Assembly: GCA_963575745.1 (NCBI GenBank) | Contig: CAUYUJ010000314.1 | Location: 434,001 to 498,000 of the forward strand | Direction: 5' to 3' | Source: Prorocentrum cordatum | Taxonomy: Eukaryota | Length of the DNA: 64,000 bases | In this document: one piece after another, positions 12,755-33,758 of the stretch | Position numbering within the stretch: the first letter of the stretch is position 1 | How the letters are laid out: each line of letters starts with the position of its first letter | Notes under the pieces: model-generated | The model's input: only the letters and a program-made list of their open reading frames with translations | Database searches by the model: none | Told to the model about the DNA's origin: nothing | Position numbers and translations under genes: made by a program

Positions 12755-13091
12755 GCGGGCTCGGCGCGCGCTGACTGCCGTGGGAGGCGGCGAGAGACAG
12801 AGACAGAGACAGGAAGGCAGACAAGGGAGAGAGAGAGAGAGAGAGAGAGGGTGTCGCATCCTGTTCAGGGTCGGGCTCGGGGCGCGTGCCATGGGCATGC
12901 TCGCAACCATCCTATTGGCTTTTTTGTTTGGAGGGGGGCGCCGGCGGCGCGTCTGATTGCGTGACTGGGTAAATGTGAGCGCGTGCCTGCCAGATTCGAG
13001 AGGGGGCCCCTCCGCTCCTGTTTCTGCTTGTATTCCTTATAACAATCGTCGCAGCGCGTGCCTCTGGCAACTGTCGCCCATTCAGCTTTCG

Positions 13092-13113
13092 CCCATAGCC
13101 GTTTTGGCTCGAG
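13092..13113 (+). other. Degenerate DinoSL-like sequence upstream of the transposase
   Basis: cccatagccgttttggctcgag matches DCCGTAGCCATTTTGGCTCAAG at 18/22, ungapped; the next in-frame ATGs are at 13131 and 13245. Confidence 0.65.
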
Positions 13114-13244
13114 CCTGCATTGCGGATCGCATGTATCCCGGGACTGGGCACAAACAGCGAGCCGCGCGCACAGCCGATGGGCCATATGGCAAGCACTCGT
13201 GCGACACCAGATGCAGGCCAACGGGGGGCTCAAAGCAACATGTC

Positions 13245-14999
13245 ATGGACGCCCGCGCCGTCGCAATTGCTCGACCATCCAGCGCGGCAGCTACGCCCGC
13301 CAGCAGCTCGGCCCCCAGCGATGCGGACATCAGCGATTACAGATCCCATTTGAGTCGGCTCTTCCTACGCAACAAAATGTCTGCCCTGGATGCCCAGCTC
13401 CTGGCTTCGAAGTCGAGTCAAGCTGGGGCCAGAGGAGTCGATGATTTTGCAAGGGTTGGTTCCCGTGGAGCCGAGCCAAAGAATATGTGTCGGGACATGC
13501 TGAGGGCGTGCTTGAAAGGAACAGACATGCCCGACTTGTATTGGGCGAAAGTACCGTGCTGCAACCCCAAGACGGGCATCAAAAGAGAGGATGTGTGGAT
13601 GCCATTTCTCCTTCCTCACGAGCTGCTACATCTGCTCGTGCAGAAGGCTGGGGAATCGTGGGGCGACCTCTGCTCCGTGCCTTCAGGGCTCGAAGCGCTG
13701 CGAGCCGAGGTCACGCGCGGGGCGCCGCATCTGTCGGGCGGGCACTTGATTTGCATCGGCTTCCACGGCGATGGAGTGCCCCATCAACGACGTAAAACAG
13801 TCGAGGTATATAGTTGGAATGTGTTGGCTTTCCCATCGTCGGAGCGTTTTCTTTTCGCAATGGTTGAAAAAGAATTCATGTGTGGATGCGGGTGCAAGGG
13901 GCGATGCACAATAGATGGCATTCTCGATATATTTTTGTGGAGTCTCCGGTGCTTGTACATGGGCCAATTTCCTACCTCGCGGCACGACTCGTTGGAGTGG
14001 CTACCGTCAGACAAGAGCCGGGCGAAACTGAAGCATGGCAGAGATTTTGGATTCCATTCAATATTGTTGCAGATCCGAGGAGATTGGCAATTCTACAAGA
14101 CGATATTTGGATTCAGCGGCTGGGCATCCAAATCAATTTGTGGGCTCTGCGGGGCCACGCAGCCAGATGGCGATAAGCCGTACAACGATTTCAGCATCCA
14201 AGCAGCGTGGAGAAAATGCAGACACAACGTGCGCGATATGCTTAGCATCCTCAGCAATTCAGGGGTCCCTTTGAGCCCCCTCTTCGGGGCGCCGTGCTTC
14301 CACGCGATCATGCTCACAATTGATGTCCTACATTGCTTGGATCTGGGCGTCTCTCAAGATATACTTGGGAATTTGTTTTGGGAGGCTATCGCATCGAAAG
14401 GTTTCTTCTCAGAGACGACGCAGGAAAAACGAGTGGACCAGTTGCTCCTTCTCGTCAAGGAGCATTACAAAGAGTGCCGCACTCCTGTTCGCGTGAATGG
14501 TTTGACTCTGGAGATGATTAAAAGGCAATCAAAATCACCCAAATTTCGCGCGAAGGGGGCGGAGACTCGATACATGGTTCCATTCGGATTGTGCTTGGCA
14601 GAGAAGATGCACGAGTTCCACGGCACCGTCCATTCGCTCACTGTGCTGGAAATGTTGAGGTGCTTGTTTCTTTTCTACACGACAATGGGCAATGATGTAT
14701 ACGATGCTGATCGTGCAGCAAGCTCGTGTCGAAAGTGTCTGCTGCTCTATAAATCGCTCTCTTCCGAAGCCAAGAACAAAGTTTTTTGGAAGTGCAAACC
14801 AAAAATGCACATGTGGCAGGAGATGGCAGAATACATGGGGACAGTAATCAGCAACCCTCGGCTCTTCTGGGCATACAAAGACGAAGATTTCGTCGGTTTC
14901 ATCAGCGAGCTAGCCCATTCGAGAGGCGGTGGTGGCATGAGTAGCACTGTCCCTAGAGTTGCAATTACGAGGTACAGGGCCCTGGGAGGGGCCACATGA
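13245..14999 (+). CDS. DDE transposase, CMC (CACTA/EnSpm/Mirage)-like, 584 aa from ATG 13245 (alternative in-frame ATG 13131)
   Basis: Uninterrupted ORF with FHGDGVP (D, 13770), QIRGDW (D, 14082), CxxC (ICGLCG), IDVLHCLDLG, KPKMH and NPRLFWAYKDEDFVG (E, 14883), in the order expected for CMC transposases. Confidence 0.8.
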   Translation: MDARAVAIARPSSAAATPASSSAPSDADISDYRSHLSRLFLRNKMSALDAQLLASKSSQAGARGVDDFARVGSRGAEPKNMCRDMLRACLKGTDMPDLYWAKVPCCNPKTGIKREDVWMPFLLPHELLHLLVQKAGESWGDLCSVPSGLEALRAEVTRGAPHLSGGHLICIGFHGDGVPHQRRKTVEVYSWNVLAFPSSERFLFAMVEKEFMCGCGCKGRCTIDGILDIFLWSLRCLYMGQFPTSRHDSLEWLPSDKSRAKLKHGRDFGFHSILLQIRGDWQFYKTIFGFSGWASKSICGLCGATQPDGDKPYNDFSIQAAWRKCRHNVRDMLSILSNSGVPLSPLFGAPCFHAIMLTIDVLHCLDLGVSQDILGNLFWEAIASKGFFSETTQEKRVDQLLLLVKEHYKECRTPVRVNGLTLEMIKRQSKSPKFRAKGAETRYMVPFGLCLAEKMHEFHGTVHSLTVLEMLRCLFLFYTTMGNDVYDADRAASSCRKCLLLYKSLSSEAKNKVFWKCKPKMHMWQEMAEYMGTVISNPRLFWAYKDEDFVGFISELAHSRGGGGMSSTVPRVAITRYRALGGAT

Positions 15000-15439
15000 T
15001 GAAAAAAACATCATCGCATCATCATCGCCATCGTCATCATCACTATCCACCGCCTTATCTGTACATCCCAAGACACGGCAATGGACATGAGGGGGCGTGG
15101 GCGGCGACACACAGAGCGAACTGGCCGCGACGGGCTGCGAGCTACGATCCCCCAGCCTTCAATCCCAGCGCCACTAGGCCACGAGGGGTACGGACGGCGA
15201 TACCCTGCTGCAGGCCACGAGAGGGGCAGGCTTCGGGCACCAGCCACGAGCCCGCCAGACGAACGTCAAGCGCAGGTCTCCGCTTGACAGGGCAATGTGT
15301 AAGCCCATATAAAGCCTTTCGGTTGCGGATACGAGTGAAGGGCGGGTTGGTCTCGATTCCGCGGCGTCTCGAAAACCGCCGCTTTCGAAGCGGCTGCAAT
15401 CAAAGCAGACCGCGTTTTCGAAACCCCCGTCTCGAAATT

Positions 15440-16383
15440 AAGCGGCTCGATTTCAGAATTCGAGACGCCCTTAAATATGAGACCAAGAAAACGAGACACC
15501 TTTTTTTTGCGAGACGCCCCAGAAAAGGAAACCATACTCAAAACATAACTGTCTTGGGCGACATCGCGGGATGAATGATTCCGGCGACGACGCTCGCCCA
15601 ATGTGACACAACATATGAGGAACAAAACGCGTCTCAAATGCAACCTCCTTGTTGCACCATACCGAGCACTCCATGCCCCTGGACCCCTTTTGCAAAGCAG
15701 GGAGCAGCAGAACACGGGTGGCACTGCATATGAGGAATAAAACGCGTCTCAAATGCAACCTCATTGTTGCACCATGCCGAGGAGGCTGCATTTGAGACGC
15801 GTTTTATTCCTCATATGCAGGGCCACCCGTGTTCTGCTGCTCCCTGCATTGCAAAAAGGGGTCCAGGGGCATGGAGTGCTCGGCATGGTGCAACAAGGAG
15901 GTTGCATTTGAGACGCGTTTTACTCCTCATATGTGGTGTCACATTGCTCGCCCAAACGCTGGACTACTCATTTCTTGAGAAATGAGTAGTTGAGTCAACT
16001 ACTTATTTAAATAAGTAGTTGGGCCAACGGGGAATTGAGTGAGGAGGGCGAGGAGTTGGGGCGGAGGCTGACCAGGACGAACACGAATTGGGAAAGAGGT
16101 GATGAGGAGGGCGACTGCGAAAATGGGAGGAGGAGGAGGGGGAGGAGGAACGGAGGAGGAACGGGAGCGAGAGGAACTACCCATGGGTAGGTGGGCCTTG
16201 CCTGCAGGGCCCCCCCTCCGCCGAAAAAGTCAGAGGTCAAACTATGGGGTCGAAAACTTTACCTCTGACTTCCGTGCTTTTCCCCACGACGCGAAGATCA
16301 AAGCGCCCCTGAGAACCCCCCACCCTCCGCGCGATGATGGTGATTACAGCGATGTGGGCGGCGATCAAGTGGGCAAAAACGGG
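15440..16383 (-). repeat. Right long terminal inverted repeat
   Basis: Reverse complement of 6274-7195. Confidence 0.95.
15600..15945. mobile_element. Same 346-bp foldback inside the right TIR, flanked by GCTCGCCC
   Basis: Mirror of 6705-7050; direct repeats at 15592-15599 and 15946-15953. Confidence 0.8.
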
Positions 16384-17569
16384 CAGTCGCTCTCAATTCC
16401 TCGTTCCCCTAACACGTAATTGTTTTTTCATGCTTTGCGCAATCGAATAAACTTACGTTGTGGTCATCTTCTGAGATGGCTCAAAAGTCCCCCAAATCTA
16501 CCGCGTTCGAAAGGTCGCGGGGCGGGGCGATAAATCTGGTTCGGTGGCTTCTATCGGGGCCCCATGTGGGGTACGTCGCCGGCGGGCGGGTCGCTGGGCG
16601 GGCCGCGAGCGGGGCGCGACGGATCGTAGGACGACGACGAGCAAAAATAACAACACTGACCCCAAATGGAACAAACCCTTATGACGTGGCCAACGAAGCC
16701 GCAATTCAGCCGCTCGCGGCGGTCGCGGGGCGTGTCGATAAGATAGCGCCTTGGATTTCTATCGAGGTCTCCTGCGAGGCGGGGCGCGGGCGGGCGGGGC
16801 GCTGGGCGGGTCGCGCGTGCATTGCGGCGGGGCGCGGGGCGAGGATCGCGAATACCAGTAACAACAACGACAAAATTAAACACCGCATCACTGAAGCCAG
16901 ACGCGCACCCAGGGACAGTGTAAAGACGTTCGGCCTCGTCAACCAGATCTCTTATCTCTAGGTTTGAGGGTGGTGATGCACGCATAGGAAATGATCTCCA
17001 AAAAATAACAGCGGCGCTCCTAAATTTAACCGATCTCACTTAAATAACAAGATATAGGCAACAATAACAAGAGATTTCTCCTAAAAGCTGCTCTTAAATG
17101 CTTCGCACCACTTAGATCTAGACTATTCGGCTGCTTCCAGCCGCAGCGGATGGTCGGGGTTGCCAGTAATACCGTTCGGCCAATCACTCTGCTGGTTCGA
17201 ATTTGGTTTGCGCGCAAGTGCATTGTTACGATGTCAAAGTGGCATGACTGGCAATACTGTCAAAAAACAATGCTTCAAGTGCAAGAAATGCACTGTCTCA
17301 GCGAGGGCTTTTCCGACGACATGGTTTCGTGCTTTTGCCGGCTAGATTTTCTGAACGCCGGGCTGAAAACTAGACTGCGGTCTAGAAAACTGAACTGCTA
17401 GGAGGTGGTTTTGCACTTGCCGGGCATCTGTGTCACCAAACAGCCCGCTTTCGCTACCAATCCGGCTACTTCCAACACTTCCGGCGAAGAAACAAAACTT
17501 CCACCCGATAAACAACACTTGCAGACGCAATCGGATTAGCGCTCCGGGCCCGCCGTTGTTTTTTCCGAC

Positions 17570-26899: not shown

Positions 26900-27450
26900 A
26901 TACCCATCCCGACGGTCGGGACCGGGCAGGGTGCGGTGTCGGCGATCGTGGGTGGCCACCGCCACGCTGCGCAGCACGGCTACGAGCTCGTGGCGCCACT
27001 GGGCCGCGTCAGCAGCATCCTGCGGCAGCCGGTGAAGGCGTGCGCCCGTTGAAGCCAGCTCGTGGGCGTGTCGGTTACACGCCTCGGCAATAGGCGTGAT
27101 GAGGCCGTCGTTGATCCCTTGGTCGCCGAGGTTGCTCTCGACTTTTTCGACCAGGAAGAGGTCTGGCTTAGCCTGCACCACGCTATGGATGTCCCGCCAG
27201 AGGTCAACCTGGGACCCCGTCGCAGGAGGAGGGTGCCCCGCGAGGAAGGCTTCGAACCTGACAGGACAAGAACGGAAAGCGCCGTTTTTGTCCACCAAGC
27301 GTGTCAGAGAAAGTATGGTGTAGAACGTCAACGAAGCCTAGAAACGCAGCACAACAAATTAAGACACATGCTGCCGGTTCACTGCGATGGCCTGCCGCGC
27401 TGGTCTGCCGTGCTGGTCTGCGAGGGGGGGAAAGGGACGACGTACGGGAC
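26900..27450 (-). pseudogene. Decayed RNase H domain of a non-LTR retrotransposon
   Basis: VDLWRDIHSVV...LVEKVESNL...GLITPIAEACNRHAHELASTGARLH follows the RNase HI pattern DLW...KVxxH...GNxxADxLAxxGA, with the conserved His and Asp substituted. Confidence 0.7.

Positions 27451-27456: not shown

Positions 27457-27548
<92 letters not shown>
27456..27548. repeat. (GTC)n microsatellite
   Basis: Pure run. Confidence 0.95.
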
Positions 27549-27549
<1 letters not shown>

Positions 27550-28379
27550 CGGGAAAGGGGTGGAAGACCCCTGCCACAGCACTGGGCGAGGCCGCAGGCA
27601 TCCGCCGATCCTGGAAGAACATCCGCCGACCCACGAAACATACAGGTGCTGTGAAGCCGTGTGTCTTTGTGGTGATCCTTTTGGAGCCGTGCTGGTGTGA
27701 AGACTTTGGTAGGACATACTGAAGTCAAGCAAAAAAGCCTTGCGAGAATCAATTGGGCGTCCCTTGGGGCTCTTTTGGGCCGGCTTGGGCCTCTCTCGGG
27801 GCGGGGTGCAGCTCGGACCCCATCAGCAGAAAAAAGTGGATTCAGAAGAACGGTGCACGCCAGAGGCGCTTCCCGTCATCTGCTGCCCTGGGCACATGAT
27901 GGACTTCGCGTGCCGTCTAGGGCTCTTGGGGCTCTTTTGGGGTCTCTGGTGCCCTCTGAGGAGCCTGTTGAAGGCCTGTTGGGAGCCCGTTGGGAACCTT
28001 TCGGAAGCCTCTTGGGGGCTTCTGTGACCCTCTTGGACTGTCTTGGGGCTCTCTGTAGCAGTCCCGGGGCCTCTTCGGGCGCTCTTGGAAGCCTTTGGGC
28101 GCTCCTTGGGGGTCTCTTGGGGCCTCTGGGCGCCTTTTGGGGGCCTCTTGTGGGCCTCTTGTGGGTCTCTTGGGGTGCTGTGGGTGTCCTTTGGGTAGCC
28201 TTCGGGAGCTCTCTTGGGCCGTTTTGGAGCCCTCCAGGAGCGATTCCCAGATGATGTGGTTTCGGAGCCCCCTCCGGGGCCGATTTTTTGAGGATGTCTC
28301 GAGCGACACGGCCATTTTTCCGGAGCCTGATCGGACAAGAACGGGAAGCGTCTTTTTGTGTGTTGGGCTTATGCGATAT

Positions 28380-29503
28380 CTGCCATGCTCCTGGATGTCC
28401 TGCCGTGCTAATGCGTGTTCTGCCGTGTTCCTGATTGTTCTGCTGAATTCCTGTGTATTCTGTGTGTTCTGCCGAGTTCCTGCGTGTTCTGCCGTGTTCC
28501 TGTGTGTTCTGCCGTGCTCCTGTGTGTTCTGCGGTGCTACTGCGTGTTCTGCCGTGCTCCTGTTATTCAGTGCATTCTGCCGTGCTCCTCGTGCTCCTGT
28601 GTGTTCTGCCGTGCTCCTGTGCACCTGCGGGGTTCTGCCGTGTTCCTGTGTGTTCTGAGGTGCTCCTGTGTGTTCTGCGTGTTCTGCCGTGCTCCTCGTG
28701 CTCCTGCGTGTTTTACAATGTTCCTGTGTGTTCTGCCGTGCTCCTGCGTGTTCTTCCACATGGTCTGCCATGCGCCTGCGTGTTCTGCCGTGCTCCTGTG
28801 TGTTTTGCCTTGCTCCTGCGCGTTCTGCCGCGCTCCTGTGGATTTTGCGTGTTCTGCCGTGCTCCTGAGTGTTCTGCCGTATTCCTATGTGTCCCGCCGT
28901 TCTCACATGTATTCTGCATGACCTGCGGGGTTCTGCTATGCTCCAGCGTGGTATGCCGTGCTCCCGTGCTTCTGCATGTTCTGCCGTGCTCCTGTGTATT
29001 TGTGTTTTCTGCCGTGCTCATCATGCTCTTCTGTGCTCTGCCGTACTCCTGTGTGTTCTGCCGTGCTCCTGCGTGTTCTGCCGTGCTCCTGCGTGTTCTG
29101 CCGTGCTCCTGCGTGTTCTGCCGTGCTCCCGTGTGTTCCGTGTGTTCTGCCGTGCTCTTGCGTGTTTTGCCTTGCTCCTGTGTGTTCTGCCGTGCTCCCG
29201 AATGTTCTTTGGGTTCTGCCGTGCTCCTGCGTGTTCTGCCGTGCTCCTGCATGTTCTGCCGTGCTCCTGCGTATTGTGTGTTTTCTGCCGTGCTCATCAT
29301 GCTCTTCTGTGCTCTTCCGTGTTCGTGCGTGTTCTGCCGTGCTCTTGTGTGTTCTGCCGGGCTCGCGAATGTTCTTTGGGTCCTGCCGTGCTACTGCGTG
29401 AACTGCCGTGCTCCTCATGCTCTTCTGTGCTCTGCCGTGCTCCAGTGGGCTTTGCCGCGCTCCTGTTTTTTTTTATGCCGTGCTCCCGAATGTTATTCGG
29501 GTT
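28380..29503 (+). repeat. 20-bp satellite GTGTTCTGCCGTGCTCCTGY, left part
   Basis: Dozens of tandem degenerate units. Confidence 0.95.
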
Positions 29504-29790
29504 AAAGTTAAAGTTAAAGAAGGGGCCTTCAAGGCGGAGTGGTGGGGCCAAACGGCCAAAAGACACGCTCACCCGAGAGGGGCCGCCTAGGGCCGCCTCT
29601 CGCGGGGGCTCCGCAGGGCCACCCACCCGAGAGGGGCCACCTTGGGCCGCCTCTCGCCTTCCAGCGGGGCCGCCTTGGGCCACCGCCCACCGTGAACTCG
29701 ACTGCGACTGAACACAGGAGTCTTCACACACAGGCAAAACAGCTCTACACACGGATACAACCGAATGCAACTGCACGCCAACTCACTCAC

Positions 29791-31005
29791 TCACTCTCCT
29801 CTCGCGATTCCTGCCCTCCGAGGGCGGCTCGGGACTCGGCCCCGCCACGCTCCTCGAGCTGCGGAAGCGGAGGCGTACTCGCTGGTCTCCTTCACTACCT
29901 CCTCGGTGGTACTGGGGGATAGCTCCAGCCAAGCCTTGGCCACAGAAGCACGAGCCCTCCACCAAGCAGAAGATGAAGGCCGTGGTTGCACCGCCCGCTC
30001 AGGAGGCCCTGCAGCAGGAACGACAGGAGCACGAGCACACAGGCCTGAGAAACACTGCTCACCACCTGTGAAGCTAGCCTCGTCGACCTGGTCCTCAACC
30101 ACCATCGTATCCTGTGCCCTCGACAACGGCGGAGAAATGCTGGACGAACTTCGACCCCTGCAAGAATCAAACTCTGCTCCACTGAGCGGCTCCTGCAGCT
30201 GCGGAATACCCACGCAGCACAAACCAGAGAAAAGCGTGGCACCACAGGTGCACAGCATGCCCTTCGCATGCCCAAACTCGCACGCAGTATCCAGAGACAG
30301 CCACTTCGCAGAATAGAGCTGTTCACGGAACTGTTCAAAAACGCTAGCCACAATAGCAGAAGGTGGGAGCGCAGCAACTGAAATTGGATGAACTGCTGCA
30401 CTGCGGAGCCTCGAGAACAACTCACCACAAGTGAGACGCGAAACCCCGGCCTGGCCCTCCAGCACAGCTGTGCCACGAACCTCCTGCCTTGGCGAAAATG
30501 TGGAACAAGGATCCTCCCTGCCCGCAACCTGGACGGCGGGCTTGTCCTCATCCACCACAACTGGCCCGTCTGGTGCTGCCCGTGCACTGTCGAGAACTAC
30601 CTCCTGACACTGCTCACGATGGCTAGGATGACGAACTTCCAATCGAGATCCACGCTGCCATTTACGGAGCTGCTGTGTCGATGCCCGAGCTACTTCTTCA
30701 CCAGCAGGGACCTCTGCATGCAGCGCGACATTGCGCCTCAGCTGGTCGGTGTGCCCAGGGATGCGGCCCGCAAGCCGCGCCGCGAGTGCGGGGATGAGCG
30801 CGACCACCCTGTCACCAACCTCAGTGCCGCCGAAAAGCAAAGCAACTGCCTCCTTGAGGCAGGTGTACTCGCGAATGAGAACTGCATTCTCCTGCTGGAG
30901 CTTCAGGACTGCACGGTCGGCCGCGCCCTTTGCAGCCTGCCGGGCAGCATTCCGCTCCGCTGCTGACTTCCTGGGGCGCCAACTCGGCGTGCCCTCCCGC
31001 GCCAT
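29791..31005 (-). CDS. 404-aa intronless protein of unknown function (basic and coiled-coil-like N-terminus; possibly LINE ORF1-like)
   Basis: ATG lies 30 nt downstream of the SL relict; the ORF is uninterrupted; no RT, endonuclease or RNase H motifs. Confidence 0.65.
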   Translation of the reverse strand: MAREGTPSWRPRKSAAERNAARQAAKGAADRAVLKLQQENAVLIREYTCLKEAVALLFGGTEVGDRVVALIPALAARLAGRIPGHTDQLRRNVALHAEVPAGEEVARASTQQLRKWQRGSRLEVRHPSHREQCQEVVLDSARAAPDGPVVVDEDKPAVQVAGREDPCSTFSPRQEVRGTAVLEGQAGVSRLTCGELFSRLRSAAVHPISVAALPPSAIVASVFEQFREQLYSAKWLSLDTACEFGHAKGMLCTCGATLFSGLCCVGIPQLQEPLSGAEFDSCRGRSSSSISPPLSRAQDTMVVEDQVDEASFTGGEQCFSGLCARAPVVPAAGPPERAVQPRPSSSAWWRARASVAKAWLELSPSTTEEVVKETSEYASASAARGAWRGRVPSRPRRAGIARGE

Positions 31006-31035
31006 CGCAAGCCCAAGCGAACCTGAACCAGCTGG

Positions 31036-31072
31036 CTTGAGCCAAAATGGCTTGAGCCAAAATGGCTACGGA
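31036..31072 (-). other. Dinoflagellate spliced leader (exact 22-mer) plus tandem 15-nt relict
   Basis: The minus strand reads TCCGTAGCCATTTTGGCTCAAG CCATTTTGGCTCAAG. Confidence 0.97.
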
Positions 31073-31074
31073 AT

Positions 31075-31400
31075 AATGTTATTCGGGTTCTGCCGTGCTC
31101 CTGCGTGTTCTGCCGTGCTCCTGTGTGTTAGAGTTAGAGACGGGGCCTTCGTGCTCCTGCGTGTTCTGCCGTGCTCCTGTGTGTTCTGCCGTGCTCCCGT
31201 GAATTCCGTGTGGTTTGCGGTGCTCCTGCGTGTTATGCCGTGCTCCTGCGTGTTCTGCCCTGCTCTTGTGCATTCTGTGTGTCCTACCGTGCTCCTTGTG
31301 ATCCTGTGTAGCCTGCCATGCTCCTGTGTGTTCTGCCGTGGTCTCGCGCGTTCTGCTGTGCTTCTGCGTGTTGGGCTGCCGTGAGCCTGCCCATGTTCTG
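31075..31400 (+). repeat. 20-bp satellite, right part
   Basis: The same unit resumes after the TSD. Confidence 0.9.
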
Positions 31401-32332: not shown

Positions 32333-32381
<49 letters not shown>

Positions 32382-33060
32382 TATATATATATATATATAT
32401 ATATGTATATGTGTAGACAAATATATATATATATATATATATACCCATAACCCGAGCGGGTCACCCTCGAACCTGATACTGTCGTCACTTCTGGGCTCCC
32501 GAAGCTGAAGCTTGAATATGGGGGAAGTATCAGGCGGGCGGCTCGTCTGTGAGTGAACTGCGAGGAAGTCTCAGGCGGGACTCCCCTCCCTATGGGGCCC
32601 TTATTTTTTTATATCAAAAACGAACATGTAACGGTCGTCACTTTTAAGCTCCTGAGGCTTGAATAGAGGGGAAGTATCAGGCGGGAGGCTCGTCTGTGAG
32701 TGAACTGTGAGGAAATCTTAGGCGGGAGCCCCCTCGCTGTGGGTTCGTATTTCATGTTTTCAGTCCGAGCGGGTCATCCTCAAACTTGTAACTGTTGTCA
32801 CCTTTGGGCTCCTGAGGCCTGAGTGTGGGGGAAGTATCAGGCGGGACGCTCGTCTGTGACTGAATTGAGAGGGAGTCTCAGGTGGGAGCCCCTTCCCTAT
32901 GGTTCCAGCAATTCATGTTTTTGATCAGAGCGGGTCATCCTAAACCTGGTAACTGTCGTCACTTTGGGGTTCCCGAGGCTTGAATTTGGAGGAAGTATCA
33001 GGCGGGGGGCCTCGTTTGTGAGTGAACTGAGGAAGTCTCAGGCGGAAGCCCCCTCCCGAT
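32235..33060 (+). repeat. Five tandem ~150-160-bp units; the first carries a (TA)n expansion at ~32336-32442
   Basis: gcttgaatatgggggaagtatcaggcgggaggctcgtctgtgagtgaactg.gagga.gtctcaggcggga at 32235, 32510, 32657, 32817 and 32978. Confidence 0.9.
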
Positions 33061-33758
33061 GCGTTCTTCAGAGGGCGATTCGCCACACCACGGCAGCGCA
33101 GGAAGAGCTAAAGAAGAAGTTGGGACTCGGGCGGCGCAGGAGCAACGGGCCACGATCGTGTCCTTCGAGTTCCACCGCGAAAACGAGCAGCGGCACGAGG
33201 AGTGCTCGGCAGGCCAGCTCATTCGCCCCCGTTTCCTACCGGGCTGCAGGTGCACGGCTTCAAGGAGTCTCCGATCTACCAGGTGGTCCCCGAGGTGCTG
33301 CGACAGGGCGCCGAAGACGCCGACGACGACGGCCAGGCCGAGGCACGGGCTCGGAGCTTGCTGATGTTCAGGCCCAGCGAGCAGGAATTCACGCGGCAGA
33401 GCTCGGGGCCGCACACCGCGCGCCGCTCGGGGATCACTCGGACTCACGCGTCCTATCTCACCTCCGCGCTGTCGCATGGCCAAAAGGCGTCGCCATCGAT
33501 TGCGCGAGGGACGAGGACGCTGGCCGCACGGGCACGTCGGACGACCAGTGGTGGCTGCACCTCTACGTCATGCTCTCCCGCGCCACGTGCGCGCGGAACA
33601 TGCGGATCCTGCGGCCGCCCACGCGGGAGTTTTTGGAGCGCGGGCCGCCGGCGTCCTTGTGGAAGGCGTTCGAGAAGTTCGGCGAGAAAGCGGAGAGCTC
33701 CAGGGATGAGGCCGAGCAGCTCGCCGCAGAGATTGGCTTCGTGCTGCCGCCCGCCTGA
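33060..33758 (+). pseudogene. Frameshifted C-terminal fragment of a PIF1-type SF1 helicase (Helitron RepHel-like)
   Basis: RRSGITRTHASYLTSALSHGQ resembles motif V (RxQxPLxxAxAxTxHKSQG). In another frame VAIDC...WLHLYVMLSRAT resembles motif VI (YVALSR). Confidence 0.75.

What the first reader, a model, noticed from the sequence alone, without database searches (positions are those of the whole stretch)
29489..31089. Full-length SL-capped retroposon with a hexamer tail instead of poly(A)
Seen on the minus strand, in order: TSD, 2 extra nt (AT), exact DinoSL, 15-nt relict SL, 30-nt UTR, 404-aa ORF, ~270-nt 3' region with internal repeats, (CTTTAA)3 whose last bases overlap the TSD, and the 15-bp TSD. 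A satellite variant at ~29190-29220 (gtgctcccgaatgttctttgggttctgcc) shows the pre-insertion site. Known: tandem SL relicts record repeated rounds of trans-splicing and retroposition, and short-repeat tails with target microhomology typify target-primed reverse transcription by stringent LINEs, whereas ordinary mRNA retrocopies end in poly(A). Inference: a protein-coding non-autonomous element that gains a complete 5' end by trans-splicing each cycle and borrows a LINE 3' tail; at least two cycles are recorded.
Basis: partly seen in the sequence, partly recalled or inferred. Interest (0 to 1): 0.78.

Follow-up and report, generated by a model that had tools for sequence, protein, structure and literature searches.

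The report
Spliced-leader retrocopy with LINE-type hexamer tail
A dinoflagellate satellite array holds a very fresh reverse-transcribed copy of a trans-spliced, protein-coding RNA that ends in a retrotransposon-style hexamer repeat instead of poly(A), a rare intact clue to how these algae copy RNAs back into their genomes.

Summary
On the minus strand there is an exact 15-bp target-site duplication, 2 extra nt, a perfect 22-nt DinoSL, the canonical 15-nt relict, a 30-nt UTR, an intact 404-aa ORF, a 271-nt 3' region, (CTTTAA)3 and no poly(A). Removing the insert restores the host 20-bp satellite.

The ORF has no Pfam family or known fold. It belongs to a large dispersed Prorocentrum family: 121 clusters at 50% identity share a roughly 125-aa N-terminal helical domain.

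Two of 41 Prorocentrum cordatum APE/RT/RNase H LINE gene models carry this family ORF at their N-terminus. One of them also has a stretch just past the LINE C-terminus that matches the element's 3' region (0 of 500 shuffles reach the score).

In one DNA run the last ~120 nt of the element are 25-50x deeper than the ORF. Other tail-to-satellite junctions and one 5'-truncated copy are also seen there. The nearest ORF copy, in DNA and in RNA, stops matching at codon 376, where the 3' module begins.

Best reading: LINE-type target-primed insertion of an ORF-bearing RNA that uses a LINE 3' end. It may be a propagating non-autonomous family, or a one-off template-switch chimera; this stays open because no genome DNA could be searched.

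The parts
31075..31089 (-). 5' copy of the target-site duplication, AACCCGAATAACATT
   Evidence: Exact 15/15 with 29489-29503. Flanks joined with one copy restore the satellite.
31073..31074 (-). 2 extra nucleotides (AT) between the TSD and the SL
   Evidence: Read directly. Untemplated 5'-junction nucleotides are an inference.
31051..31072 (-). Complete 22-nt dinoflagellate spliced leader encoded in DNA
   Evidence: 21-nt core with 0 mismatches; 0.00 expected in shuffles. The consensus is printed in passages of PMC5585692.
31036..31050 (-). 15-nt relict SL (SL nt 8-22)
   Evidence: Exact. Identical to the canonical relict quoted in PMC12014239.
31006..31035 (-). 30-nt 5' UTR
   Evidence: Covered by the DNA contig X1 record 8 (30630-31052), which also holds the relict.
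29791..31005 (-). Intact 404-aa ORF (P0001), stop included
   Evidence: 89% identical over residues 1-296 to P0003; 121 relatives at E<=1e-3.
30631..30963 (-). Conserved N-terminal helical domain (residues 15-125; nearly invariant R66, P72, R90-R91-N92, H96)
   Evidence: Alignments A1 and A3. AF2 pLDDT above 95. No Pfam hit or fold match beyond a long helix.
29926..29967 (-). Second family motif, AWWRARA..AWL (residues 347-360)
   Evidence: Shared with P0005, P0009, P0010 and P0152.
29877..29878 (-). Breakpoint (codon 376): every other copy of the ORF seen stops matching here
   Evidence: X1 DNA record 4 and RNA records 10, 18 and 25 all end their match at 29877/8, with 39-224 unmatched letters beyond. 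In X1 only that one contig covers 29906-30133 (tables 2 and 8).
29520..29877 (-). 3' module: last 28 codons, stop and 271-nt 3' UTR; part of a more abundant repeat
   Evidence: X1 word depth rises 9, 16, 25, 127, 250 towards the tail, against 2-8 over the ORF. RNA fold z = -3.4.
29640..29711 (-). Stretch similar to the sequence just past the C-terminus of the LINE gene model P0152
   Evidence: tblastn 58% over 24 aa, E = 3.5e-5 against the element and 0.022 against the window. Score 74 against shuffles 36 +/- 5, 0 of 500 reach it.
29502..29519 (-). (CTTTAA)3 tail, no poly(A)
   Evidence: Only occurrence in the window.
29489..29503 (-). 3' copy of the TSD; its first AA is shared with the tail (2-nt microhomology)
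28379..29488 (.). Host 20-bp satellite (unit GAGCACGGCAGAACACGCAG on the minus strand; higher-order periods 49/69/98), downstream flank
   Evidence: TRF.
31090..31372 (.). The same satellite, upstream flank
   Evidence: TRF.

Best explanation
This is a very young insertion made by target-primed reverse transcription by an APE-type LINE.

The template was an RNA polymerase II transcript. It had been trans-spliced with the dinoflagellate spliced leader and came from a source copy that already carried an SL in its DNA; that is why a relict sits behind the full SL. It encodes a 404-aa protein of a large, dispersed Prorocentrum-specific family. Its 3' end is not poly(A). It is the 3' terminal module and (CTTTAA)n tail of a repeated LINE-like family.

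Proposed steps:
1. The endonuclease nicked the satellite.
2. The freed 3' end paired with the last AA of the tail.
3. Reverse transcription ran to the capped 5' end, adding 2 extra nt.
4. Second-strand cleavage 15 bp away produced the duplication.

I read the unit as a non-autonomous, protein-coding retroposon. It regenerates its 5' end by trans-splicing and is recognised by a LINE reverse transcriptase through a LINE-derived 3' end. Most likely it is an ORF2-less deletion derivative of composite 'family ORF + LINE' elements such as the loci behind P0152 and P0003.

Shown: the anatomy, the insertion, the family membership of the ORF, the repeat nature of the 3' end, and the link to LINE gene models.

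Inferred: the identity of the reverse transcriptase, recognition of the 3' module, and that ORF plus module propagates as a unit.
For: - Anatomy and empty site.
- The relict equals the canonical DinoRL.
- The ORF family has 121 hits, 30 of them at E<=1e-10. One 90% cluster has 7 members on 7 P. cordatum contigs. The N-domain appears inside gene models next to unrelated RING, PHD, globin or glycosyltransferase domains, as dispersed repeats do.
- Family members of 319-404 aa sit on contigs of 1.1-1.6 kb, the size of this element.
- LINE link, part 1: P0003 residues 507-1472 are 71% identical to P0123. 41 P. cordatum proteins relate to it, 12 of them with PF03372 (APE) precomputed, and UniRef gives names such as reverse transcriptase, RNase H and RanBP2.
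- LINE link, part 2: 2 of 41 such models start with the family ORF. P0003 has residues 1-296 at 89% identity. P0152 residues 21-293 match P0010 residues 69-370 and are followed by a LINE ORF from its own start.
- LINE link, part 3: P0152 then carries, just past the LINE C-terminus, a stretch matching the element's 3' module. The order there is ORF - LINE - module, against ORF - module here.
- In DNA run X1, depth over the last 57-114 nt is 250 and 127, against 2-8 over the ORF.
- In X1 at least 3 contigs join the tail end (29500-29504) to satellite at other phases. One contig joins satellite to 29538, that is a copy truncated to about 35 nt (tables 2, 5, 5c, 8).
- The 3' region folds unusually well, z = -3.4.
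Against: - No second copy of the ORF-module junction was seen.
- The one X1 contig over the ORF's 3' part, and the RNA contigs of three metatranscriptomes, all leave the window's sequence at codon 376 and run on for 39-224 nt unlike it.
- The module is far more abundant than the ORF, so the two exist apart.
- Full-length LINE ORFs of this group begin with their own RanBP2 finger and coiled coil and need no ORF1. 39 of 41 models lack the family ORF.
- The P0152 match is only 24 residues.
- P0003 and P0152 are gene predictions. Their fusions may join neighbouring but separate elements.
- No LINE DNA with a CTTTAA tail was retrieved.
- Contig depths are sums over all organisms in a run and are not copy numbers.
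Confidence: 0.45

Rival explanations
1. One-off chimeric retrogene made by template switching. The LINE reverse transcriptase started on its own RNA's 3' end (module plus CTTTAA tail) and copied about 370 nt. It then jumped onto an unrelated SL-capped mRNA of the family inside its coding region (codon 376) and ran to the cap. ORF and module were never one RNA.
For: - Both sides break at the same place. The ORF copy seen in X1-X4 leaves the window at 29877/8, and no X1 contig from the module side reaches beyond 29905.
- After the breakpoint the frame runs only 28 more codons.
- The module is 25-50x deeper than the ORF.
- P0003 and P0152 could be the same kind of product, with the switch after a longer stretch of LINE.
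- Bipartite L1 chimeras of this sort are known in mammals (recalled, not read here).
Against: - It needs three independent jumps onto the same gene family in three subfamilies that are only 25-89% alike: the window, P0003 and P0152.
- There is no A-run at the junction, so the jump would be internal rather than onto an RNA end.
- Contigs show presence, not absence, so the missing bridging contig is weak evidence.
Confidence: 0.3
2. Plain retrogene. The 271-nt 3' region is the parent mRNA's own 3' UTR, which happens to end in CTTTAA repeats. Reverse transcription was primed on a non-adenylated or truncated mRNA by AA microhomology.
For: - SL-relict retrogenes are very common in dinoflagellates: about 22-23% of genes in two Symbiodinium genomes (passages of PMC6050394).
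- The ORF is intact.
- A close paralogue is transcribed.
- No other copy of the whole element is in the window.
Against: - RNA contigs of the close paralogue do not continue into anything like the 3' region. X2-X4 have zero depth over 29621-29848 while the ORF is covered.
- The terminal module is multi-copy in X1, with its own junctions to satellite ending at the tail.
- There is no poly(A) at all.
- The module matches sequence behind a LINE ORF.
Confidence: 0.12
3. The ORF is the genuine ORF1 of a bicistronic LINE, and the element is simply an internally deleted LINE (half-LINE). This is a special case of the best explanation in which the ORF is LINE-born.
For: - The order ORF - spacer - LINE ORF from its own Met - module in P0152.
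- A long N-terminal helix, as in many ORF1 proteins.
- The 5'-most part being the rarest fits 5' truncation.
Against: - 39 of 41 LINE models lack it.
- These LINE ORFs already carry an N-terminal zinc finger and coiled coil of about 400 aa before the endonuclease.
- No Pfam ORF1 family matches, and the fold searches returned nothing beyond the long N-terminal helix, which leaves ORF1 membership untested rather than excluded.
- Family members occur on 1.1-1.6 kb contigs, the size of monocistronic mRNAs.
Confidence: 0.15

Closest known systems
Dinoflagellate SL-relict retrogenes ('mRNA recycling'; Slamovits & Keeling 2008 recalled; Song et al. 2017, PMC5585692, passages read)
   Same: A DNA-encoded DinoSL followed by the 15-nt relict directly ahead of an intronless ORF, recording at least two rounds.
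   Different: Here both ends are intact and legible: a 15-bp TSD, 2 extra 5' nt, and a hexamer-repeat tail with no poly(A). The papers I read in passages name LINEs only as the presumed machinery and say 'direct evidence is still lacking'. None of those passages describes 3' ends or TSDs.
Stringent-type LINE/SINE partnerships (for example eel UnaL2/UnaSINE1; CR1, L2 and RTE tails of short tandem repeats); recalled, not read here
   Same: A non-autonomous element ending in the partner LINE's 3' module and a short-repeat tail, primed with target microhomology. A structured 3' region lies just upstream of the tail.
   Different: The 5' part is not a tRNA/5S/7SL-derived Pol III unit. It is a trans-spliced Pol II mRNA with a 404-aa ORF. 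The partner LINE's 3' end has not been seen as DNA.
HAL1 (half-L1, ORF1-only) non-autonomous LINE derivatives of mammals; recalled
   Same: A protein-coding, RT-less element that keeps the LINE 3' end and depends on a LINE in trans.
   Different: The ORF here matches no known ORF1 family, and it is not shown to be LINE-born. The tail is a hexamer repeat, not poly(A).
L1 bipartite chimeric retrogenes made by template switching (U6-L1, mRNA-L1); recalled
   Same: The 3' part comes from the LINE RNA and the 5' part from another cellular RNA copied to its 5' end. One TSD pair surrounds the whole.
   Different: Those end in poly(A). Here the acceptor is an SL-capped mRNA, and the same gene family recurs next to LINE sequence in two further loci.

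Membership tests
Dinoflagellate SL-tagged retrocopy | Genomic DinoSL (full or partial) directly upstream of the ORF | tested here: met
   22/22 nt at 31072-31051.
Dinoflagellate SL-tagged retrocopy | Relict SL (CCATTTTGGCTCAAG) behind the SL, showing repeated rounds | tested here: met
   15/15 nt at 31050-31036. The motif is as in PMC12014239.
Dinoflagellate SL-tagged retrocopy | Intronless relative to an intron-bearing parent | not testable with these tools
   The ORF is continuous, but no parent locus DNA is available.
Processed (L1-type) retrocopy | Poly(A) tail at the 3' junction | tested here: not met
   The tail is (CTTTAA)3 abutting the TSD, with no A-run.
TPRT insertion by an APE-type LINE | Target-site duplication of about 7-20 bp, with restoration of the empty site | tested here: met
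   15-bp exact TSD. The joined flanks align with the intact satellite.
Non-autonomous retroposon with a LINE-derived 3' end (stringent type) | 3' end shared with an autonomous LINE | tested here: inconclusive
   A 24-aa match to sequence behind the LINE ORF in P0152; 0 of 500 shuffles reach it. No LINE DNA was retrieved.
Non-autonomous retroposon with a LINE-derived 3' end (stringent type) | Short tandem-repeat tail and multiple copies ending at the same terminus, with 5' truncation | tested here: met
   The hexamer x3 tail. In X1 there is a depth gradient, at least 3 other tail-satellite junctions at 29500-29504, and one copy truncated at 29538. This rests on contig data from one run.
Non-autonomous retroposon with a LINE-derived 3' end (stringent type) | The whole unit (ORF plus module) present in several independent copies | tested here: inconclusive
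   None in the window. Every other ORF copy seen in 4 of 4 runs laid leaves the window's sequence at codon 376, and no contig was seen to bridge the junction. Contigs cannot prove absence.
LINE ORF1 protein (e.g. Pfam Transposase_22 and other ORF1 types) | Sequence or fold match to a known ORF1 family | tested here: inconclusive
   Pfam gave 0 families at E<=1. Foldseek PDB gave nothing at E<=0.001. VIA-align gave only generic long-helix matches, Z<=5.6. A family that is not listed is not excluded.
Autonomous LINE | Encodes an endonuclease and a reverse transcriptase | tested here: not met
   41 LINE proteins against the element match only through the family ORF (P0003, P0152) and the 24-aa 3' stretch. 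There is no EN or RT.

The most novel reading that the evidence does not exclude
Retroposition in (at least prorocentroid) dinoflagellates does not use poly(A). It is driven by a stringent LINE that initiates on its own 3' module with a (CTTTAA)n tail. SL-capped mRNAs enter the genome either by template switching from that module or by having captured it. One protein-coding family has turned this into a lifestyle, as a LINE-parasitic retroposon whose 5' end is rebuilt by trans-splicing at every cycle. If so, the huge retrogene load of dinoflagellates carries a readable LINE 3' tag that identifies the long-sought machinery.
Probability: 0.2. Interest if true: 0.85.

Novelty: new variant of a known kind. 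Interest (0 to 1): 0.6.

Why it matters
Dinoflagellate genomes are full of SL-tagged retrogenes. [quoted passage not shown]

This copy is young enough that both junctions are legible. It shows an L1-sized TSD, a full cap-proximal 5' end and a non-poly(A) short-repeat tail with target microhomology. That points to target-primed reverse transcription by a LINE that recognises its own 3' end.

It also gives a concrete sequence tag, the module plus the CTTTAA tail. With it the responsible LINE and all its passengers can be searched for in any Prorocentrum assembly. It further raises the possibility of a new kind of non-autonomous element: Pol II, trans-spliced and protein-coding.

Tried and rejected
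- Whole genome: none is held, so copy counts, parent gene and LINE 3' ends could not be searched directly.
- Metagenome contigs. An alignment query first failed for lack of a conserved stretch. With a narrower alignment, 40 pattern matches were found but none was confirmed. The exact 20-nt module/tail pattern gave 0 hits.
- Viral contigs. The 18-nt tail pattern gave 13 loci. All are about 35% GC, with only 18-23 nt of identity, so they are chance matches. The family alignment gave nothing.
- Protein word search, near length: 1 hit only. Residues 280-404 against shorter proteins: none. The C-terminal quarter therefore has no relative on record.
- ESM Atlas: no usable hit. PDB by sequence for P0003: 0 hits.
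- Pfam on P0003: only RVT_1 and RNase_H, at E = 0.12 each. The LINE nature rests instead on relatives with PF03372 and on source names.
- Fold searches of the whole ORF model and of the N-domain model (pLDDT 90) found only generic long-helix or coiled-coil rows, Z<=5.6, and nothing in BFVD.
- P0003's 80-aa extension past the LINE stop does not match the module (score 50, within shuffle range).
- Earlier findings of this scan: nothing by place, sequence or words.
- Literature for a CTTTAA/TTAAAG LINE tail: the search returned only unrelated papers. Searches for DinoSL with non-LTR or LINE gave no description of TSDs or 3' tails of dinoflagellate retrocopies in the passages read. I did not read these papers whole or see their supplements. 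The repeat tables of the P. cordatum genome paper (PMC10666404) could bear on the LINE family.
- Parts of the stretch without RNA cover in X2-X4, and the small word shares of all 20 holder runs (at most 0.16), are not used as evidence of habitat or of silence.
- Second SL-like site at 13093: no TSD of 9 nt or more was found between its upstream 65 nt and 14990-17500.
Full report
**1. What is there**

Read on the minus strand, the region holds, in order:
- the host satellite;
- AACCCGAATAACATT (31089-31075);
- AT (31074-31073);
- a perfect 22-nt dinoflagellate spliced leader (31072-31051);
- the 15-nt relict CCATTTTGGCTCAAG (31050-31036);
- a 30-nt UTR;
- an ATG at 31005 opening an uninterrupted 404-codon frame that stops at 29791;
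- a 271-nt 3' region with a 26-bp internal repeat;
- (CTTTAA)3 (29519-29502);
- the same 15-mer again (29503-29489), its first AA shared with the tail.

None of this is chance. In shuffles the SL core is expected 0.00 times and the tail 0.01 times. The exact 15-mer occurs only at these two places. Joining the flanks with one copy of the 15-mer gives a sequence collinear with the intact satellite 300 bp away, differing by two substitutions around the duplicated site. There is no poly(A).

**2. It is a recent retro-insertion**

A DNA-encoded SL followed by exactly SL positions 8-22 is the accepted signature of an mRNA that was trans-spliced, reverse transcribed, re-integrated, transcribed and trans-spliced again (passages of PMC7245778 and PMC12014239). 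The template's source gene was therefore itself a retrocopy. The perfect SL, relict, TSD and ORF indicate a very young event. The 15-bp duplication, the 2 extra 5' nucleotides and the 2-nt overlap between tail and target fit target-primed reverse transcription by an endonuclease-bearing LINE. That step is inferred.

**3. The ORF**

- Pfam finds nothing at E<=1.
- A search of 1.84 billion cluster representatives finds 121 relatives, 30 of them at E<=1e-10.
- Nearly all relatives match only residues ~1-130. The named ones are all Prorocentrum cordatum predictions. The others come from JGI, ENA or Logan contigs of 0.7-1.6 kb.
- Alignments show three shared pieces: an N-terminal domain with nearly invariant R66, P72, RRN 90-92 and H96; a CTCGA motif in some members; and AWWRARA..AWL near the C-terminus.
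- AlphaFold models the N-domain at pLDDT 90-98 as a 45-residue helix packed by three shorter ones. The rest is mostly disordered.
- Fold searches give only generic long-helix rows, Z<=5.6.
- The family is multi-copy and dispersed. One 90% cluster has 7 members on 7 contigs. The domain turns up inside gene models next to RING, PHD, globin or glycosyltransferase pieces, as dispersed repeats do.

A close paralogue (about 93-98% identical) is present in one DNA run and in contigs of three marine metatranscriptomes, two of them poly(A)-selected, covering 29878-31029. Of the 34 differences listed (of 138 in all), 14 are synonymous and 20 are not, which gives a crude dN/dS near 0.5.

**4. The link to LINEs**

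The best relative, P0003 (1562 aa), is 89% identical over residues 1-296 and then unrelated. From residue ~507 it is 71% identical to P0123. It belongs to a group of 41 P. cordatum proteins. Twelve of these have a precomputed APE endonuclease domain, and sources name some as reverse transcriptase, RNase H or RanBP2-finger proteins. Pfam on P0003 itself gives only weak RVT_1 and RNase_H hits at E = 0.12.

Full-length members begin with a RanBP2 finger, then a coiled coil, then APE at ~430-550. Only 2 of the 41 carry the family ORF:
- P0003.
- P0152, in which residues 21-293 match P0010 residues 69-370. These are followed, after ~80 residues, by a LINE ORF from its own first residues.

P0152 also has, just past the LINE C-terminus, 24 residues that match a translation of window 29711-29640 (58% identity). 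The score is 74 against 36 +/- 5 for 500 dinucleotide shuffles, none of which reaches it. One P. cordatum locus therefore shows the order family ORF - LINE - module, where the window shows family ORF - module. These are gene predictions. I could not see their DNA.

**5. The 3' end is a repeat of its own**

In DNA run X1 the summed contig depth is 2-8 over the ORF. Towards the tail it rises to 9, 16, 25, 127 and 250 (table 2).

At least three X1 contigs join positions 29500-29504 (the end of the tail) to satellite sequence at phases other than the window's. One contig joins satellite directly to 29538, which is a copy of about 35 nt plus tail (tables 5, 5c, 8). That is what a family with a fixed 3' terminus and 5' truncation looks like. 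Two RNA contigs carry a 41-nt piece of the module (table 8). The 3' region folds better than all 200 shuffles, z = -3.4.

Caveats: this is one run, the depths sum all contigs, and the joints rest on single low-depth contigs.

**6. The open point**

Every other copy of the ORF that was seen stops matching at 29877/8 (codon 376) and continues for 39-224 letters unlike the window. This holds for X1 record 4 and for RNA records 10, 18 and 25. In X1 that record is the only contig over 29906-30133, so nothing bridges the ORF and the module there.

Either the window's unit is a chimera of two separate RNAs made at this insertion (template switch), or it belongs to a lineage of ORF+module elements not sampled in these runs. 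For the second reading: the same gene family lies upstream of LINE sequence in two further, only distantly alike loci, and the family has a repeat-like dispersal. For the first: the coincident breakpoints and the very different abundances.

I put 0.45 on the non-autonomous retroposon, including the case that it is an ORF2-less derivative of a composite element. I put 0.30 on a one-off chimera and 0.12 on a plain retrogene with its own odd 3' UTR. That a LINE-type reverse transcriptase initiating on a non-poly(A), short-repeat 3' end made this copy I hold at about 0.8.

**7. Comparison with what is known**

The SL-relict part is textbook for dinoflagellates. The new part is the legible 3' end and TSD. 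In passages, papers up to 2025 only presume LINE involvement, and I found no description of such tails. I did not read whole papers or supplements.

It works like a stringent LINE/SINE pair, like a half-LINE, or like an L1 template-switch chimera. Membership in any of these is not established (see Membership tests).

**8. Limits**

No genome is held for the window. Metagenome and viral scans were empty or gave chance matches. Contig look-up by protein is closed. The organism is inferred only from the best protein hits (P. cordatum, 89% identity).

Noticed in passing
window 13093-13113 (+), open frame 12957-14999: A second, degenerate SL (CCATAGCCGTTTTGGCTCGAG, 3 transitions from the 21-nt core) sits just ahead of a 680-codon stop-free frame with Cys-rich motifs. 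It has no Pfam hit at E<=0.01. It is probably an older SL-tagged retrocopy. No TSD of 9 nt or more was found, and only an A7 run follows the stop.
   Followed up: partly
window 26951-27295 (-): A weak but repeated tblastn match of 11 LINE proteins (RNase H region, for example P0003 residues 1109-1187, E 2e-4 to 0.13). This is a decayed LINE fragment 2.2 kb downstream of the element on the same strand.
   Followed up: partly
window 28379-29488 and 31090-31372: A 20-bp satellite (GAGCACGGCAGAACACGCAG on the minus strand) with 49/69/98-bp higher-order periods. In DNA run X1 its summed contig depth reaches 3e4-1e5, and several module-tail junctions lie in it. It may be a preferred target or simply a very large share of the genome.
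   Followed up: partly
window 29466-29474 (-): An A9 run 14 nt downstream of the 3' TSD replaces the satellite's GAACACA at that position (seen in the alignment). It lies outside the TSD, so it is not the element's tail. It is unexplained.
   Followed up: no
proteins P0053, P0092, P0096, P0098, P0004: The family's N-domain occurs in P. cordatum gene models beside PHD, RING, glycosyltransferase, C1 and globin pieces, and twice in tandem in P0004. These are likely predictions that merge a dispersed repeat with neighbouring genes.
   Followed up: partly
window 27457-27548; 32336-32443; 32628-33066: A perfect (CGT)30 microsatellite, an (AT)54 run, and a 160-bp tandem repeat of 2.7 copies, all from TRF.
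   Followed up: no
window 27920-28300 (-): A run of CCAAGAGGCCCC-like 11/22/31/42-bp repeats between the satellite and the LINE fragment. It translates to a PKRP/PQEA-rich open frame. It resembles in flavour, but does not match, the internal repeats of the element's 3' module.
   Followed up: no
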